This document shows, one piece after another, positions 3,429 to 10,910 of a stretch of 64,000 bases of DNA. The notes beneath the pieces were generated by a model that searched no databases, was not told where the DNA came from, and saw nothing but the letters and a program-made list of their open reading frames with translations. The stretch is from Escherichia phage vB_EcoS_HdH2. The position numbers were made by a program, and so were the translations under genes. Where the stretch lies: sequence record NC_048748.1. One strand, 5' to 3'. How positions within the stretch are numbered: the stretch's first letter is position 1; the number at the start of each line of letters is the position of its first letter.

Positions 3429-3506
3429 TGGTGGCTCCCCGAGGATTCGAACCTACGTACCTTCCGGTTATGAGCCGGGTGCTCATACCATATGAGCTTG
3501 AGAACC
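3429..3506 (-). tRNA. tRNA-Met/Ile-like (anticodon CAU) with imperfect T-stem
   Basis: Acceptor GGTTCTC/GGGAGCC, D-stem GCTC/GAGC, anticodon loop CTCATAA, T-loop TTCGAAT with two mismatches at the base of the T-stem, A-CCA end. Confidence 0.45.
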
Positions 3507-7229: not shown

Positions 7230-8010
7230 TTTAAGAACTCTCGTAAAAACTCTTAAAAATACAGACGATACCGGGAGAGTCATAAGTCTCACTCATTAAG
7301 TATTTCAAGACAAAATACGGTAACGTCTATTATTTTCCAGTTTAAGTCAGGGTGACTTAGTGGTTATGTCCTGCGGTATATTGAGGACTCGGTTAGGCTT
7401 GGGGTCATGACTTCCCACCTTTTGCTGCTACTCAACAGGAGTTATCGCGAATTACCTGTGCTATTGTGCACCATTAGTGACATCTCTCATGTCAGCATTT
7501 CCCACTTTGTGGATAGCTTGAAAAACTACTCCGATATGGAGAAAGAACTTCACTACCCTAGAATACCTTCTAAAGTTCTTCTTTAGCCTGGACATAGTTA
7601 AATCGTAATAAAACTATTCAGCAGACTGGTTGGTTAGTCTGGAACCAACTACCGCGTGGTTTAGGCAGTGCGCAACTAACCTCGGAAGCTTTTACGTTAA
7701 AAGCATCAGTTATCCAGTTCTTACCGACCGTAGGATTCGAACCTACATCTTCCACCAGTTACGGCTTGATAATACCAATTATACTAGGACGGCAGTGTTA
7801 CTACATAAGTGATTTCCACACCCCACTATTTATAAATTAGAGAAGAGTTTAGGGGAGAGGTTTCAGACGCCTCATTTTACACGTTCTAGCCACTAACCGG
7901 GATTGCCGCCCCCTGTGTACTAGTTTTACAACTAACCCACCGACTCTATTCAACGAATCTTAGTGCTCGACGCATCTTACATTAAGACAAGTTCAGCGTA
8001 ATCGGCTCGC
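7230..8010 (-). ncRNA. promoter-driven non-coding transcript region; candidate stable RNA(s), includes a tRNA-like 3' domain at about 7720-7795
   Basis: About 780 nt without a credible ORF, lying between the early promoter at 8020-8070 and tRNA-Arg; contains canonical T-arm GTAGG-TTCGAAT-CCTAC with acceptor-like GCCGTCC/GGTCGGT but no anticodon stem, plus several local hairpins. Confidence 0.3.
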
Positions 8011-8019
8011 TGTTCCCTA

Positions 8020-8070
8020 ATTTATGAATATATTATACAGAATTTAAAGGCATTTAGCAAATAAATTTTT
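8020..8070 (-). promoter_or_regulatory. T5-type early promoter firing into the 7230-8010 non-coding region
   Basis: Reverse complement has TTTGCTA -35, TGTATAATATAT extended -10 and CATAAATT box. Confidence 0.55.
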
Positions 8071-8512
8071 AATTAAATTCGCCAGCAATCTGAGCAGCAG
8101 TACCACCATCATAACGCCCAGAAAATTCTTCCTTAATCGCTTTCATCAGCATACCTTTTGTAATTCCAGGGTTTAGCTTAACTAATTCTGCAAAGTATTT
8201 ACGAATCTCAGTATCAGATAACTGAGGAGGCAGATACTCCTGCAACCACTTAGTTAGAATGTATTCATACTGAGCAGACTGCAAGCTATAACTATCAAGA
8301 TCTTGACCATGAAGTTTAGCTTTCATCTGGTTAATGCTTTTTAGTTGAGCTTTGAGATAAGACACAAATTGTTCAGAAGTGATGAAATCTTTATCAATAC
8401 GCTGAAGATCCCCGATTATGGTCTGATAGCTTTTAGCGACTTCTTTATCAGAACCATTAAACTTAGAATCCTGCAAAGCTCTACGCAAAACATCTAAAAT
8501 ATTCTCTTCCAT
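8069..8512 (-). CDS. GatB/YqeY-domain protein
   Basis: YqeY-like signature (YLPPQLSD, GRYDGGTAAQI); start overlaps the stop of the upstream small ORF (TAATG). Confidence 0.55.
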   Translation of the reverse strand: MEENILDVLRRALQDSKFNGSDKEVAKSYQTIIGDLQRIDKDFITSEQFVSYLKAQLKSINQMKAKLHGQDLDSYSLQSAQYEYILTKWLQEYLPPQLSDTEIRKYFAELVKLNPGITKGMLMKAIKEEFSGRYDGGTAAQIAGEFN

Positions 8513-8680
8513 TATTTCATTCCTAACGCTTGGTTAAAAGATTGTTCTGTCATAACTGCTGAGACTTTGGCGAAATCAAACTTTTTAGGGTTCGTAGTGA
8601 TCTCAGCAACGTTAGAAGTTTTAACAGTTTTCGTAGTACGAATACCGCGAGTGTTAACGCCAATAATTACAACTGATTTC
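8510..8680 (-). CDS. small hypothetical protein (about 54 aa, MKSVVIIGVNTRGIR...), not in the ORF track
   Basis: ATG behind RBS GAGAGGAAG and the promoter at 8703-8755; stop overlaps the next start. Confidence 0.4.
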
Positions 8681-8750
8681 ATATTTCGCTTCCTCTCATT
8701 AATTTATGAAAGTATTATACAGAAATTTAAGTACTTAAGCAAGTAAATTT

Positions 8751-9200
8751 TTAAGTTTTAGTGACAACAGGTTTATAGAATGTATGTCCCTTAATCTTAG
8801 TTGTTTTCTTAAATTTCTTTGTCCAGTAAGGTTTATCTTTACCACTATGGAAGTATAGTGCTCCATGTGTAGGATCTTGTGGTAAATCAACGTAGTATAT
8901 CACTCTAGCTAAATTCTTAGCAGTTTGCCAAGCCTCATCAGTTTTATCAACTTTTGGTCTCTTAGATACCCAAGAGAACTGGTTAGACTGATATACTACT
9001 TTACAGTAGGAATCTGGGAATTTACCGGAGTTTACACGGTTTTTAGTAACATGTGCAATCGCTGTCATTCCCTTTATGCCCTCACCACGACTTTCGAAAT
9101 AGATATTTTTAGCAATGCAATCTATTTCTTTTGCATCGTGCGATGCCTGACTACTAAAGCTGAAGGTAAGGGCAGCTACTAAAAGCAAAGCTGCCTTCAT
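8751..9200 (-). CDS. secreted cell-wall hydrolase, SleB/CwlJ-like (Hydrolase_2 family); candidate lysis or entry enzyme
   Basis: Signal-peptide-like N-terminus (MKAALLLVAALTFSFSSQA) and family motif FESRGE...AIAHVTKNR; start set at second ATG behind GGCAGGAG RBS. Confidence 0.5.
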   Translation of the reverse strand: MKAALLLVAALTFSFSSQASHDAKEIDCIAKNIYFESRGEGIKGMTAIAHVTKNRVNSGKFPDSYCKVVYQSNQFSWVSKRPKVDKTDEAWQTAKNLARVIYYVDLPQDPTHGALYFHSGKDKPYWTKKFKKTTKIKGHTFYKPVVTKT

Positions 9201-9205
9201 TCTTT

Positions 9206-9523
9206 TTACTCCTGCCAATCATATTCAACACGATTGGGATTTTCTTTATACCCTAAGTCAAGCAAATCATTACGCATACTTTGCTTAGCTACTGGGTTCG
9301 AGGTTACTAGTACCACTTTCTTTGGTCTCTGCCCAAATTCTAAGAGTAAACGAAGAATTTGATAACCTTCCATACCATCTACAGCCAAGTCATTATCCAT
9401 ATAAACGAAATGGCCTGTGGTATCAGTTTTATTCAGAAACTCTACAGCGGCTTCTGGGGTTCGAATGATAATGTCCATTCCGTGAAGATTACGCACATCA
9501 TCAATCAAAATATGAAAAGTCAT
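9206..9523 (-). CDS. hypothetical protein (105 aa), possibly a CheY-like receiver fold
   Basis: ORF behind the promoter at 9541-9595; acidic pocket-like motif DNDLAVDGMEGY; assignment weak. Confidence 0.4.
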   Translation of the reverse strand: MTFHILIDDVRNLHGMDIIIRTPEAAVEFLNKTDTTGHFVYMDNDLAVDGMEGYQILRLLLEFGQRPKKVVLVTSNPVAKQSMRNDLLDLGYKENPNRVEYDWQE

Positions 9524-9965
9524 AATAGCCTCGTTTCATCAATTTAAAAATATATTATACATATAATTTAGTAGATTAGCAAATACATTTTTAAATTGTG
9601 AAACTAGTAAACCGATAAACAGCCTAGAGGCGCCACAGGCCCTATCTTATGAGCCATGTACCTTTGATCTAGGGTTTGAATCATCAACGAATACTTTGCA
9701 TCTTTTAGCTTTAGAAGTTTAGAAGTTTGAGTTCTTTAAACTTTTCAGCTTTCATACTTAAATGTTGATCTTTGAAGTTGTGTCGGTAATATCAACGACG
9801 CTTTGTTCTTACGTGTCAGCTTAAAAGGCTGGTGTAATAAACATAATCTCCAATAGATTATACTTTATAGTATGGTCAGCGGTCTTATTTAACCTCGTAT
9901 TTCAACCGCTGCTGCGAGGTAAGATGCTTGGGCTTTCGTCTACCGATTTACTAGCTTTTAAATTA

Positions 9966-10604
9966 TTACTCTACTTCAATGAAGGTAGAGGCATTAGACT
10001 CGGACAGAACAAAGTCAACATTTGTTGCAAAGTCCTGGTATTCCTCGTCATGCTGTTTAATCAGCTTCTCCAGTTCCAGCGGATCAATCAAGAATGGAGT
10101 ATTCTTGAGTTCCAGCAGGTTGAGCTGCATTTTAACTTCATCTTCGGAAGTTTTCTTATCGCGGGTAGCCATGCTATCCTGCAAACGCTCATATTTAGCA
10201 TCAAACTGTGCTTTCTGTGTATTAAACTTAACCGTAGCGGCATGGAACTGCTTACGCATGTTAGCCAGCAGCTGAGCTTTAAGCTCCATAGAACGCTTAG
10301 CTTCAATTGCTTCCGCAACAGTCATTTTACGAGAACCGATCTCAACGATTGTTTCTGCATTGCTCTTAATCAGAGCAGCTTTGATACGATCACGCTGGGA
10401 CATCATATCTAGGAGAGATTGGAAATCTGCCTTAATACGAGCAGATAGATCGTCTACTTCGATTGCAGCGCCAACTACAACCTTATTTTTATCCTTACCT
10501 TCACCAACAGCGATCAGAAGCTGTTGTTCAGTAGCTTTACGAATTTTAGCTTCCAGAGATTTGATAGTTGCCAGAGCGCGAGTTTTAGAAATACGAGTAG
10601 TCAT
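9966..10604 (-). CDS. hypothetical protein (212 aa), charged and helical
   Basis: Long ORF in operon orientation; no recognisable catalytic motif. Confidence 0.55.
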   Translation of the reverse strand: MTTRISKTRALATIKSLEAKIRKATEQQLLIAVGEGKDKNKVVVGAAIEVDDLSARIKADFQSLLDMMSQRDRIKAALIKSNAETIVEIGSRKMTVAEAIEAKRSMELKAQLLANMRKQFHAATVKFNTQKAQFDAKYERLQDSMATRDKKTSEDEVKMQLNLLELKNTPFLIDPLELEKLIKQHDEEYQDFATNVDFVLSESNASTFIEVE

Positions 10605-10657
10605 TATTTGCTTCCTTATATGAAGTTTGAGATTTGAATTTGTTTAAATTTGATCTA

Positions 10658-10840
10658 TTACAGACCAATTGCCAGCAGAGTGCGCAGAACAGTATCGTTA
10701 CTGTTATCAATTTTAGGATTAGCACGATTTAGCAGATCAAAGATTTTCTGGACACCTGATTGACGTTCAGCCATACGACGGATACCCAGATTACGAGTAG
10801 CTTTCTTACCATTTTTACGAACATTTTTAGATACTGGCAT
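10658..10840 (-). CDS. hypothetical small basic protein (60 aa)
   Basis: ATG preceded by RBS and the early promoter at 10861-10915. Confidence 0.5.
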   Translation of the reverse strand: MPVSKNVRKNGKKATRNLGIRRMAERQSGVQKIFDLLNRANPKIDNSNDTVLRTLLAIGL

Positions 10841-10910
10841 ATTTGTTTTCCTTTTATTGTTTTCTCAAATTTATGAATATATTATACAGAATTTTGGGGC
10901 CGGAAGCAAA

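What the first reader, a model, noticed from the sequence alone, without database searches (positions are those of the whole stretch)
8751..9523. Signal-peptide-bearing SleB-like cell-wall hydrolase paired with a small CheY-like protein in the early region
The 8751-9200 product has a cleavable-looking signal peptide and SleB/CwlJ-type motifs (FESRGE, AIAHVTKNR), unlike the cytoplasmic peptidase-type endolysin I associate with T5. Its start overlaps the stop of a 105-aa protein with a receiver-like acidic motif. It might be a secreted endolysin or an early-acting muralytic factor.
Basis: partly seen in the sequence, partly recalled or inferred. Interest (0 to 1): 0.4.

Follow-up and report, generated by a model that had tools for sequence, protein, structure and literature searches.

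The report
Exported SleB-like wall hydrolase of T5-like phage
The two genes are the long-annotated T5.084/T5.083 pair of T5-like phages: an exported SleB-fold cell-wall enzyme kept in addition to the normal lysis genes, beside a cytoplasmic receiver-like protein that is probably only a neighbour.

Summary
Both genes lie on the minus strand. With the ATG start at 9200 the hydrolase gene does not overlap the upstream stop; a 5-nt spacer separates them.

The window is a Tequintavirus, 98.7% identical to Salmonella phage MET_P1_179_112. The pair is orthologous to T5.084/T5.083.

- **8751-9200** encodes a 149-aa Pfam Hydrolase_2 protein. It has an SleB-catalytic-domain fold, an invariant catalytic Glu36, a conserved Cys pair and a Sec-type signal peptide. 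The signal peptide is a feature of the whole clade.
- **9206-9523** encodes a cREC_REC receiver-fold protein with no signal peptide. This family is predicted in the literature to process cyclic phosphates in RNA-repair or NAD contexts.

The two genes form one early, bicistronic unit between two sigma-70 promoters.

The pairing is synteny specific to one lineage. In My1 the genes are 2.7 kb apart, and no cREC lies next to the hydrolase in Klebsiella and Providencia relatives.

A canonical holin, M15 endolysin and spanin cassette exists in close relatives, outside this window. The protein is therefore an accessory exported muralytic enzyme, not the endolysin. It is already annotated but not functionally characterised.

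In passing, I found an unannotated, covarying structured RNA just upstream.

The parts
9554..9582 (-). Sigma-70 promoter of the two-gene unit: -35 TTGCTA (9582-9577), 17-nt spacer, -10 TATAAT (9559-9554)
   Evidence: Promoter scan, 10 of 12 matches. A promoter is annotated at the homologous place in T5 NC_005859, 43067-43141.
9206..9523 (-). Gene for a 105-aa cREC_REC receiver-fold protein, orthologue of T5.084. It has no signal peptide, so it is cytoplasmic.
   Evidence: Pfam PF20274, 55.3 bits against a cut-off of 27. phrog_1479. D8, D43, D45 and T74 invariant, D9 nearly so. AF2 model pLDDT 91.7 with alternating strands and helices. Top PDB matches are REC domains. dN/dS 0.09.
9209..9212 (-). 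GGAG Shine-Dalgarno for the hydrolase gene. It lies inside the last codons of the cREC gene, 8 nt before the ATG.
   Evidence: Read from the sequence...TGG CAG GAG TAA AAAGA ATG.
8751..9200 (-). Gene for a 149-aa SleB/CwlJ-fold (Hydrolase_2) cell-wall hydrolase precursor, orthologue of T5.083. Catalytic Glu36; conserved Cys28 and Cys66.
   Evidence: Pfam PF07486, E 2.2e-25. phrog_938. PDB 4F55/4FET by profile, E about 1e-21, and by fold. Conserved columns. dN/dS 0.07-0.14. 100% identical proteins are annotated in several phages.
9141..9200 (-). Part of the gene coding the predicted Sec signal peptide, residues 1-20 (MKAALLLVAALTFSFSSQA|S)
   Evidence: Hydrophobic core with KD9 2.96 and a small-X-small site. 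The same feature occurs in about 76 of 82 homologues despite sequence divergence. No dedicated predictor was available.
8714..8742 (-). Next promoter, 8 nt after the hydrolase stop: -35 TTGCTT (8742-8737), 17-nt spacer, -10 TATAAT (8719-8714). It marks the 3' border of the two-gene unit.
   Evidence: Read from the sequence. It falls below the scanner's threshold because TTGCTT matches only 3 of 6 positions. T5 annotates 'promoter P-D/E 33' at the homologous place. No terminator-like site in 7900-10900.

Best explanation
**Identity.** The locus is the T5.084-T5.083 transcription unit of a T5-like phage. A sigma-70 promoter drives a bicistronic mRNA.

**First product (cREC).** It is a cytoplasmic receiver-fold protein. 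Its family is predicted, not shown, to open 2',3'-cyclic or ADP-ribose-cyclic phosphates in RNA-repair and NAD-linked conflict systems.

**Second product (SleB-like).**
- It is made with a cleavable Sec signal peptide and exported to the periplasm.
- It matures to a basic protein of about 14.9 kDa (pI 9.7) with a single domain.
- It probably forms a Cys28-Cys66 disulfide (inferred).
- It cleaves the glycan strands of the host's peptidoglycan using Glu36, most likely as a lytic transglycosylase like SleB (inferred from homology).

**Role.** It is not the phage's endolysin. T5-like phages keep a canonical holin/M15 L-alanoyl-D-glutamate peptidase/spanin cassette elsewhere. The most likely role is an accessory, holin-independent glycan-cleaving enzyme. 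It would already be in the periplasm when the holin fires, and would complement the peptide-cutting endolysin. Until then it would be harmless through a low dose or an unknown restraint (inferred).

**The pairing.** The adjacency of the two genes reflects shared descent and co-transcription. There is no evidence for a joint mechanism.
For: **Identity and anatomy**
-.

**Domain, fold and active site**
-.

**Export signal conserved across the clade**
-.
- It is also present where the homologue directly follows a holin, in Chaseviridae Bp10 and SSEM1.

**Purifying selection**
- dN/dS is 0.07-0.14 for both genes.

**Canonical cassette elsewhere, with near one-to-one co-occurrence**
-.
- PMC11180984 and PMC3326045 agree.

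**An SleB-fold enzyme can act on ordinary Gram-negative walls from the periplasm**
- A T6SS effector with this fold is toxic in the periplasm; it rounds and bursts E. coli, and E108Q abolishes the effect (PMC11148199).
- The signal-peptide homologue CB7_83 is reported toxic on expression in E. coli, data not shown by the authors (PMC7344957).
- Zymomonas mobilis has a chromosomal SleB homologue that matters for cell-wall fitness.

**cREC identity and predicted role**
-; PMC7824862 and PMC9503650.

**Pairing is lineage-specific**
- Adjacent in Markadamsvirinae.
- A Sequestin gene is inserted between the two in L009, and a 473-nt insert in L036.
- 2.7 kb and five genes apart in My1.
- No cREC beside the hydrolase in the Klebsiella and Providencia relatives or in rV5.
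- cREC of KVP40-like phages sits by tRNA genes with no hydrolase nearby.
- 1376 phage records hold a Hydrolase_2 relative against 492 with a cREC relative.
Against: - No enzymatic or genetic data for T5.083 were found.
- The signal peptide rests on a heuristic, not a trained predictor.
- Bacillus SleB needs muramic delta-lactam, which E. coli lacks, so the substrate and bond cleaved are inferred.
- An enzyme exported from an early promoter should threaten premature lysis, and I found no inhibitor gene. The small downstream DUF7616 protein has no export signal.
- Timing is inferred from promoter type and map position, not from expression data.
Confidence: 0.6

Rival explanations
1. Non-lytic early factor. 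The exported enzyme remodels or locally opens the host wall during the latent period and plays no part in final lysis. Possible purposes are accommodating envelope changes, assembling a trans-envelope structure, or changing the surface against superinfection.
For: - It is transcribed from its own sigma-70 early-type promoter, far from the holin.
- In other large virulent phages the signal-peptide homologue also sits among nucleotide-metabolism or early genes, not by a holin.
- The cell evidently survives export for most of the cycle.
Against: - In Chaseviridae the same kind of protein directly follows the holin, so the family does serve lysis.
- T5's canonical lysis genes are also described as lying in the early region, so map position says little.
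- No partner structure is encoded nearby.
Confidence: 0.25
2. Functional two-gene module. The receiver-like protein regulates or activates the hydrolase, as the first reader's 'paired with a CheY-like protein' suggests.
For: - The two genes are co-transcribed. The hydrolase's Shine-Dalgarno lies inside the cREC gene's 3' end and only 5 nt separate the ORFs.
- The adjacency holds in all Markadamsvirinae loci examined, 26 of 29 IMG/VR loci directly adjacent or nearly so.
Against: - cREC has no signal peptide and the hydrolase is exported, so the mature proteins are in different compartments.
- The genes are 2.7 kb apart in My1. cREC is absent beside the hydrolase in the Klebsiella, Providencia and rV5 loci.
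- Other genes are inserted between them in L009 and L036.
- A cREC allele only 52% identical, fused to an HNH-like domain, sits beside an almost unchanged hydrolase gene.
- The published contexts of cREC are RNA ligases and NAD-processing enzymes.
- There is no Response_reg hit and no kinase.
Confidence: 0.07
3. It is the phage's real, secreted endolysin, and the M15 peptidase is secondary.
For: - Many records label it 'endolysin'.
- Related proteins occupy the endolysin position in Chaseviridae.
Against: - The holin-adjacent M15 lys is present in essentially every T5-like record. From my own knowledge, it is the biochemically characterised T5 endolysin; PMC7344957 cites its PDB entry 2MXZ.
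- The 'endolysin' labels come from PHROG-based automatic naming.
Confidence: 0.04
4. It is a catalytically inert wall-binding protein or a decaying gene.
For: No activity has been shown for any T5-like member.
Against: - The catalytic Glu and 9 other columns are invariant over 34 sequences down to 30% identity.
- dN/dS is 0.07-0.14.
- The full-length domain matches SleB.
Confidence: 0.03

Closest known systems
T5.083 ('cell wall hydrolase SleB' / 'endolysin') and T5.084 of phage T5 and other Tequintavirus/Epseptimavirus genomes
   Same: Same genes. Proteins 100% (hydrolase) and 99% (cREC) identical are deposited. Gene order, spacing and flanking promoters match T5 NC_005859.
   Different: Nothing of substance. 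The window is another isolate of the same gene pair.
Bacillus SleB, spore cortex-lytic transglycosylase (PDB 4F55, 4FET)
   Same: Catalytic-domain fold: Foldseek probability 1.0, TM 0.62-0.79, rmsd 2.4-2.9. Profile match over the whole domain with the Y-x-E-S-R-G-E motif aligned.
   Different: - Only 28-31% identity.
- No N-terminal peptidoglycan-binding domain.
- Scores 50 bits against the 236.5-bit cut-off of the SleB equivalog model.
- No YpeB-like neighbour.
- The host wall lacks muramic delta-lactam.
- It has a clade-specific Cys pair that SleB lacks.
Signal-peptide SleB-like hydrolases of Vequintavirinae/Certrevirus (rV5 ORF2, CB7_83, CR3_087, P7_95)
   Same: A small Hydrolase_2 protein with a signal peptide, present as a second muralytic gene away from a classic cassette. 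In some of these phages it accompanies an M15-type peptidase.
   Different: About 40% identity. Different neighbours: rIIA in rV5, and a small two-TM protein overlapping the gene in CB7.
Holin-adjacent Hydrolase_2 endolysins of Chaseviridae (Bp10 gp35, SSEM1 gp95)
   Same: Same catalytic domain with an N-terminal signal-like segment.
   Different: They sit directly after the holin and carry an extra segment of about 40 aa. There they appear to be the endolysin; in T5-like phages that place is taken by the M15 peptidase.
T6SS effector T6EC3 (SleB-fold periplasmic toxin)
   Same: An SleB-like fold acting on Gram-negative peptidoglycan from the periplasm, dependent on the equivalent Glu (PMC11148199).
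   Different: It is delivered by T6SS as the C-terminal domain of a larger effector, and it has a periplasmic immunity protein. No immunity-like gene is seen here.
Sec-exported and SAR endolysins (Oenococcus phage fOg44 Lys44; P1 Lyz, from my own knowledge)
   Same: Holin-independent export of a muralytic enzyme before lysis. This raises the same question of how activity is restrained.
   Different: Those enzymes are the phage's only endolysin. The N-terminus here looks like a short cleavable signal (13-residue core plus SQA|S), not a roughly 20-residue SAR anchor.
cREC (cyclic-phosphate-processing receiver) domain, Pfam PF20274
   Same: Above the Pfam cut-off, with the acidic residues conserved. 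It is phage-borne, standalone, without a kinase, and near tRNA genes.
   Different: The family's activity is only predicted (PMC9503650 says it is experimentally uncharacterised). No RNA ligase, sirtuin or Nudix gene is adjacent here.

Membership tests
Pfam Hydrolase_2 (PF07486; SleB/CwlJ catalytic-domain superfamily) | Score above the curated Pfam cut-off over the whole domain | tested here: met
   89.7 bits against 27, profile positions 1-100 of 100.
Pfam Hydrolase_2 (PF07486; SleB/CwlJ catalytic-domain superfamily) | SleB catalytic-domain fold | tested here: met
   AF2 model with pLDDT 91.6. The only PDB matches with E below 0.001 are 4F55 and 4FET, TM 0.62-0.79.
Pfam Hydrolase_2 (PF07486; SleB/CwlJ catalytic-domain superfamily) | Catalytic glutamate in the Y-x-E-[AS]-R-G motif | tested here: met
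   E36 is invariant in 34 sequences and aligns with the E of YGESRGE in 4F55/4FET.
Pfam Hydrolase_2 (PF07486; SleB/CwlJ catalytic-domain superfamily) | Lytic transglycosylase chemistry (1,6-anhydroMurNAc products) | not testable with these tools
   Needs muropeptide analysis.
SleB proper (spore cortex-lytic enzyme, NCBIfam TIGR02869 equivalog) | Score above the equivalog cut-off | tested here: not met
   50.3 bits against 236.5. Only profile positions 79-201 match.
SleB proper (spore cortex-lytic enzyme, NCBIfam TIGR02869 equivalog) | N-terminal peptidoglycan-binding domain and a YpeB partner gene | tested here: not met
   The mature protein is one 129-aa domain with no second Pfam hit. Its neighbours are cREC, DUF7616 and a YqeY-like protein.
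Canonical holin-dependent phage endolysin | Encoded in a lysis cassette next to the holin or spanin | tested here: not met
   In the closest relative the holin/lys/Rz-like genes lie about 22 kb away. There is no holin, lys or spanin homologue in the window.
Canonical holin-dependent phage endolysin | Cytoplasmic accumulation (no export signal) | tested here: not met
   An N-terminal signal-like segment is conserved in the clade.
SAR (signal-arrest-release) endolysin | An N-terminal weakly hydrophobic transmembrane segment of about 20 residues, without a signal-peptidase site | tested here: not met
   The hydrophobic core is 13 residues and is followed by SQA|S. Small-X-small sites recur in homologues: SHA|T, SYA|S, AIA|S, VQA|Q. 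This is a heuristic only.
Sec-exported (signal-peptide) muralytic enzyme | Cleavable type I signal peptide; export and cleavage in vivo | tested here: inconclusive
   The sequence features fit and are conserved. No trained predictor and no experiment were available.
cREC_REC (PF20274) | Score above the curated cut-off, with the receiver-type acidic residues | tested here: met
   55.3 bits against 27. D8, D43, D45 and T74 are invariant, and D9 is at 90% or more.
cREC_REC (PF20274) | Receiver (flavodoxin-like) fold | tested here: met
   AF2 model with pLDDT 91.7 and alternating strands and helices. The best PDB matches are REC domains (DesR, GacS D1, NarL, RcsB) at E 1.5e-3 to 1e-1, TM about 0.55.
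cREC_REC (PF20274) | Context of RNA-repair or NAD/ADP-ribose-processing genes; cyclic-phosphate esterase activity | tested here: inconclusive
   tRNA genes lie 2 kb away and Sequestin genes flank cREC in one relative. No ligase, sirtuin or Nudix gene is adjacent. The activity is untested anywhere.
Two-component response regulator (CheY-like, PF00072) | Response_reg profile match and a cognate histidine kinase | tested here: not met
   No PF00072 hit at E up to 0.1. No kinase is annotated in the T5 region.

The most novel reading that the evidence does not exclude
T5-like phages, and several unrelated groups of large virulent phages, deliberately send an SleB-fold lytic transglycosylase through Sec into the periplasm long before lysis. 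It would be kept latent by an unknown mechanism, or used for a job other than lysis such as wall remodelling or superinfection control. That would make it a distinct, holin-independent class of phage muralytic factor.
Probability: 0.2. Interest if true: 0.5.

Novelty: already known. Interest (0 to 1): 0.22.

Why it matters
For annotators, the lesson is that 'endolysin' on T5.083-type genes is an automatic label. The phage's lysis cassette is elsewhere, and the neighbouring 'CheY-like' gene belongs to a different predicted system for RNA or NAD conflict.

For phage biology, there is a modest open question. Roughly 500 T5-like genomes, and several unrelated lineages of large phages, maintain under purifying selection a second muralytic enzyme that bypasses the holin. 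Why they do so, and how the cell survives it until lysis, is not known.

A knockout and an export assay would settle it quickly.

Tried and rejected
- **Literature.** I looked for experimental work on T5.083/T5.084 by locus tag and by 'T5 + SleB / cell wall hydrolase'. Only genome descriptions turned up. The SleB structure paper (PMC3415495) is not held. PMC13575424 proved irrelevant.\n- **Widening the cREC context.** A scan of IMG/VR with alignment A2 returned almost only T5-likes. I redid it with A3.\n- **Virion proteomics.** Four gel bands of AKFV33 say nothing about the hydrolase.\n- **Lipoprotein reading.** Rejected, because there is no Cys at the cleavage site.\n- **Alternative TTG start at 9218.** Considered less likely than the ATG, which has GGAG 8 nt upstream.\n- **Upstream RNA.** MAFFT could not put stem 2 of the pseudoknot in register, so that stem was tested with my own script. 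The stem parts had been chosen by a pairing-maximising search, so the P-values are optimistic.\n- **The 212-aa protein.** PDB and Pfam searches gave nothing.

Full report
**What is there**

The window is a T5-like phage. The stretch 8000-10700 is 98.7% identical over its full length to Salmonella phage MET_P1_179_112, and 445 phage records match, nearly all Tequintavirus and relatives.

The two ORFs of the finding lie on the minus strand:
- 9523..9206 encodes 105 aa.
- 9200..8751 encodes 149 aa from the ATG.

They correspond to T5.084 and T5.083 of the T5 reference.

The upstream stop (TAA, 9208-9206) is followed by 5 nt and then the ATG. A GGAG lies 8 nt before the ATG, inside the last codons of the upstream gene. 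The ORFs therefore abut but do not overlap, unless the less likely TTG at 9218 is used.

**Transcription unit**

- A TTGCTA-17-TATAAT promoter lies at 9582-9554.
- A TTGCTT-17-TATAAT promoter lies at 8742-8714, 8 nt after the hydrolase stop.
- T5 annotates promoters at both homologous places, the second as 'P-D/E 33'.
- No terminator-like site is found.

The pair is thus a bicistronic unit with its own promoter, in the region that T5 papers call early.

**The hydrolase: domain and fold**

- The protein matches Pfam Hydrolase_2 end to end: E 2.2e-25, 89.7 bits against a cut-off of 27. It also matches PHROG 938.
- A profile of 34 homologues hits only the SleB catalytic domains 4F55 and 4FET in the PDB, at E about 1e-21. 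The Y-x-E-S-R-G-E motifs align.
- An AlphaFold model (pLDDT 91.6) has those same entries as its only significant structural matches, with TM 0.62-0.79.
- Glu36 is invariant down to 30% identity.
- Cys28 and Cys66 are conserved in this clade but absent from Bacillus SleB. This fits a periplasmic disulfide, which is an inference.

It is not SleB proper. It scores 50 bits against the 236.5-bit equivalog cut-off, lacks the N-terminal wall-binding domain, and has no YpeB-like neighbour.

**The hydrolase: export signal**

- The N-terminus MKAALLLVAALTFSFSSQA|S has the layout of a type I signal peptide.
- About 76 of 82 homologues have an equivalent hydrophobic segment and small-X-small site, although the N-terminal sequences differ. 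Most of the exceptions are shorter or 5'-truncated ORFs.
- No trained predictor was available, so this remains a strong inference.
- The mature protein is basic, with pI 9.7.
- dN/dS against Epseptimavirus-type orthologues is 0.10-0.14.

**The neighbour**

- The 105-aa protein matches Pfam cREC_REC at 55 bits against a cut-off of 27.
- D8, D43, D45 and T74 are invariant, and D9 nearly so.
- It models confidently as an alternating strand-helix fold. Its best PDB matches are response-regulator receiver domains, with modest scores.
- It does not hit the ordinary Response_reg profile, and no kinase is nearby.
- The family was named by Aravind's group. They predict that it opens cyclic phosphates in RNA repair and NAD/ADP-ribose conflict systems, and they note that it is experimentally uncharacterised (PMC7824862, PMC9503650).
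- It starts directly with strand 1 and has no signal peptide, so it is cytoplasmic.

**Is the pair a pair?**

Adjacency holds throughout Markadamsvirinae but is not preserved elsewhere:
- One metagenomic relative has a Sequestin gene between the two genes. Phage NR01-type L036 has a 473-nt insert.
- In Pectobacterium phage My1 they are 2.7 kb and five genes apart.
- Klebsiella T5-like phages and Providencia PR1 have the hydrolase with no detectable cREC beside it.
- The locus fetched around rV5's SleB gene holds no cREC. A published survey places V5's cREC in a sirtuin/tRNA-ligase neighbourhood.
- KVP40-like phages have cREC next to tRNA genes with no hydrolase nearby.
- In some T5-likes a cREC allele only 52% identical, fused to an HNH-like N-terminal part, sits beside an almost unchanged hydrolase gene.
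- Hydrolase_2 relatives occur in 1376 phage records and cREC relatives in 492.

Taken with the different compartments of the two products, this argues for co-transcribed neighbours rather than a mechanism-sharing pair.

**Is it the endolysin?**

- The closest relative encodes holin + lys (M15 peptidase) + an Rz-like spanin about 22 kb from the SleB-like gene.
- tblastn finds none of them in the window. The window's left end maps about 10-13 kb short of that cassette.
- M15 lys at 60% identity or more occurs in 524 phage records, and the SleB-like protein at 60% or more in 519. T5-like phages therefore essentially always carry both.
- Others have already noted 'multiple endolysin ORFs', with the SleB-type one far from the holin, in the very phage closest to this window (PMC11180984) and earlier in AKFV33.

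**How it probably works**

Exported SleB-fold enzymes can attack ordinary Gram-negative walls:
- A T6SS effector with this fold is toxic in the periplasm; it rounds and bursts E. coli, in a way that depends on the equivalent Glu.
- The signal-peptide homologue CB7_83 is reported as toxic on expression.
- In Chaseviridae, signal-bearing Hydrolase_2 proteins directly follow the holin.

I therefore favour an accessory, holin-independent glycan-cleaving enzyme. It would wait in the periplasm and complement the peptide-cutting M15 endolysin. How it is kept harmless until then is unknown.

A non-lytic wall-remodelling role is the main rival. In rV5, Pakpunavirus and several uncultured large phages the homologue also sits among early or nucleotide-metabolism genes.

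**Novelty**

The genes are annotated in hundreds of genomes, including proteins 100% and 99% identical. The signal peptide has been described for homologues. Only the function remains untested. This is an ordinary, already known feature with a modest open question.

**Noticed in passing: a structured RNA upstream**

This may be more interesting than the finding itself. The 440-nt 'empty' stretch just upstream (window 9963-9589, minus strand) follows a 212-aa gene (10604-9966) that is annotated implausibly as 'tail fiber protein'. The stretch is a conserved structured RNA with three parts:
- **5' pseudoknot.** An H-type pseudoknot at 9920-9877. Stem 1 is 100% paired on the alignment, against 32-64% when partners are slid. 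Stem 2 exists in 17 different complementary versions.
- **Middle.** A run of UUCAAAG-like repeats.
- **3' domain.** At 9679-9600, with 90.9% of cells paired against 29-56% when slid, and 0 of 500 shuffles reaching the observed covariation.

A covariance model of the 3' domain hits 47 of 54 diverse IMG/VR loci whose 212-aa protein is only 33-42% identical. The hits are always on the same strand, always 200-430 nt after the gene, and occur nowhere else in 380 kb.

In many of these loci a tRNA gene starts 2-3 nt after the element, and same-strand tRNA genes surround the module. This suggests that the RNA is cut out of a tRNA precursor.

No Rfam 15 family matches. T5's record does not annotate it.

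In My1-like phages the SleB-like gene starts right after this RNA. In T5-likes the promoter, cREC and the hydrolase follow.

Noticed in passing
window 9589-9963 (minus strand); pseudoknot 9877-9920, 3' domain 9600-9679: An unannotated, conserved structured RNA lies between the 212-aa gene and the cREC promoter. It has a 5' H-type pseudoknot with many compensatory versions, a middle run of UUCAAAG/GUUAAAG-like repeats, and a covarying 3' domain. A covariance model of the 3' domain finds it after the 212-aa gene in 47 of 54 very diverse phage loci and nowhere else. Often a tRNA gene starts 2-3 nt after it. No Rfam 15 match, and not annotated in T5.
   Followed up: partly
window 9966-10604 (minus strand): This 212-aa protein (phrog_1491, T5.085) is labelled 'tail fiber protein' in many records. 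It lies in the early region. It has no Pfam or PDB relative. At least 339 IMG/VR stretches encode a relative; in most of the diverse loci examined it is followed by the structured RNA above, and in many it lies inside a tRNA gene cluster. The label looks wrong, and a partnership with that RNA is a possibility.
   Followed up: partly
window 7722-7793 and 3432-3506 (minus strand): Rfam's tRNA model finds two tRNA-like elements (35.5 and 40.3 bits) that ARAGORN did not report. The first lies inside the stretch that the T5 record annotates as rnaX, a 'stable RNA with unknown functions'.
   Followed up: no
L041 5485-6306 and L042 (IMG/VR T5-like contigs; also Kenya-K44 and S.Inf 5-2): In some T5-like phages the cREC domain (52% identical to the window's) is the C-terminal part of a 273-aa ORF. 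Its N-terminal part has HNH-type homing-endonuclease motifs. The downstream SleB-like gene is almost unchanged, so there is a sharp mosaic boundary between the two genes.
   Followed up: partly
L009 4763-5546 (metagenomic T5-like contig): Two small genes with the Pfam Sequestin domain flank the cREC gene, one of them inserted between cREC and the hydrolase gene. This fits a nucleotide-signal or anti-defence setting for cREC better than a cell-wall one.
   Followed up: no
window 8069-8682 (minus strand): The genes after the hydrolase are a 56-aa DUF7616 protein and a YqeY-like protein (labelled 'tRNA amidotransferase' by PHROG). The hydrolase/YqeY-like adjacency is kept in Providencia PR1 (YqeY confirmed by Pfam), where cREC is not beside the hydrolase. 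My1 also has a gene directly after the hydrolase, but only its first 64 aa were in the locus and they gave no Pfam hit. The exported hydrolase is thus embedded in an otherwise RNA/tRNA-centred neighbourhood.
   Followed up: partly
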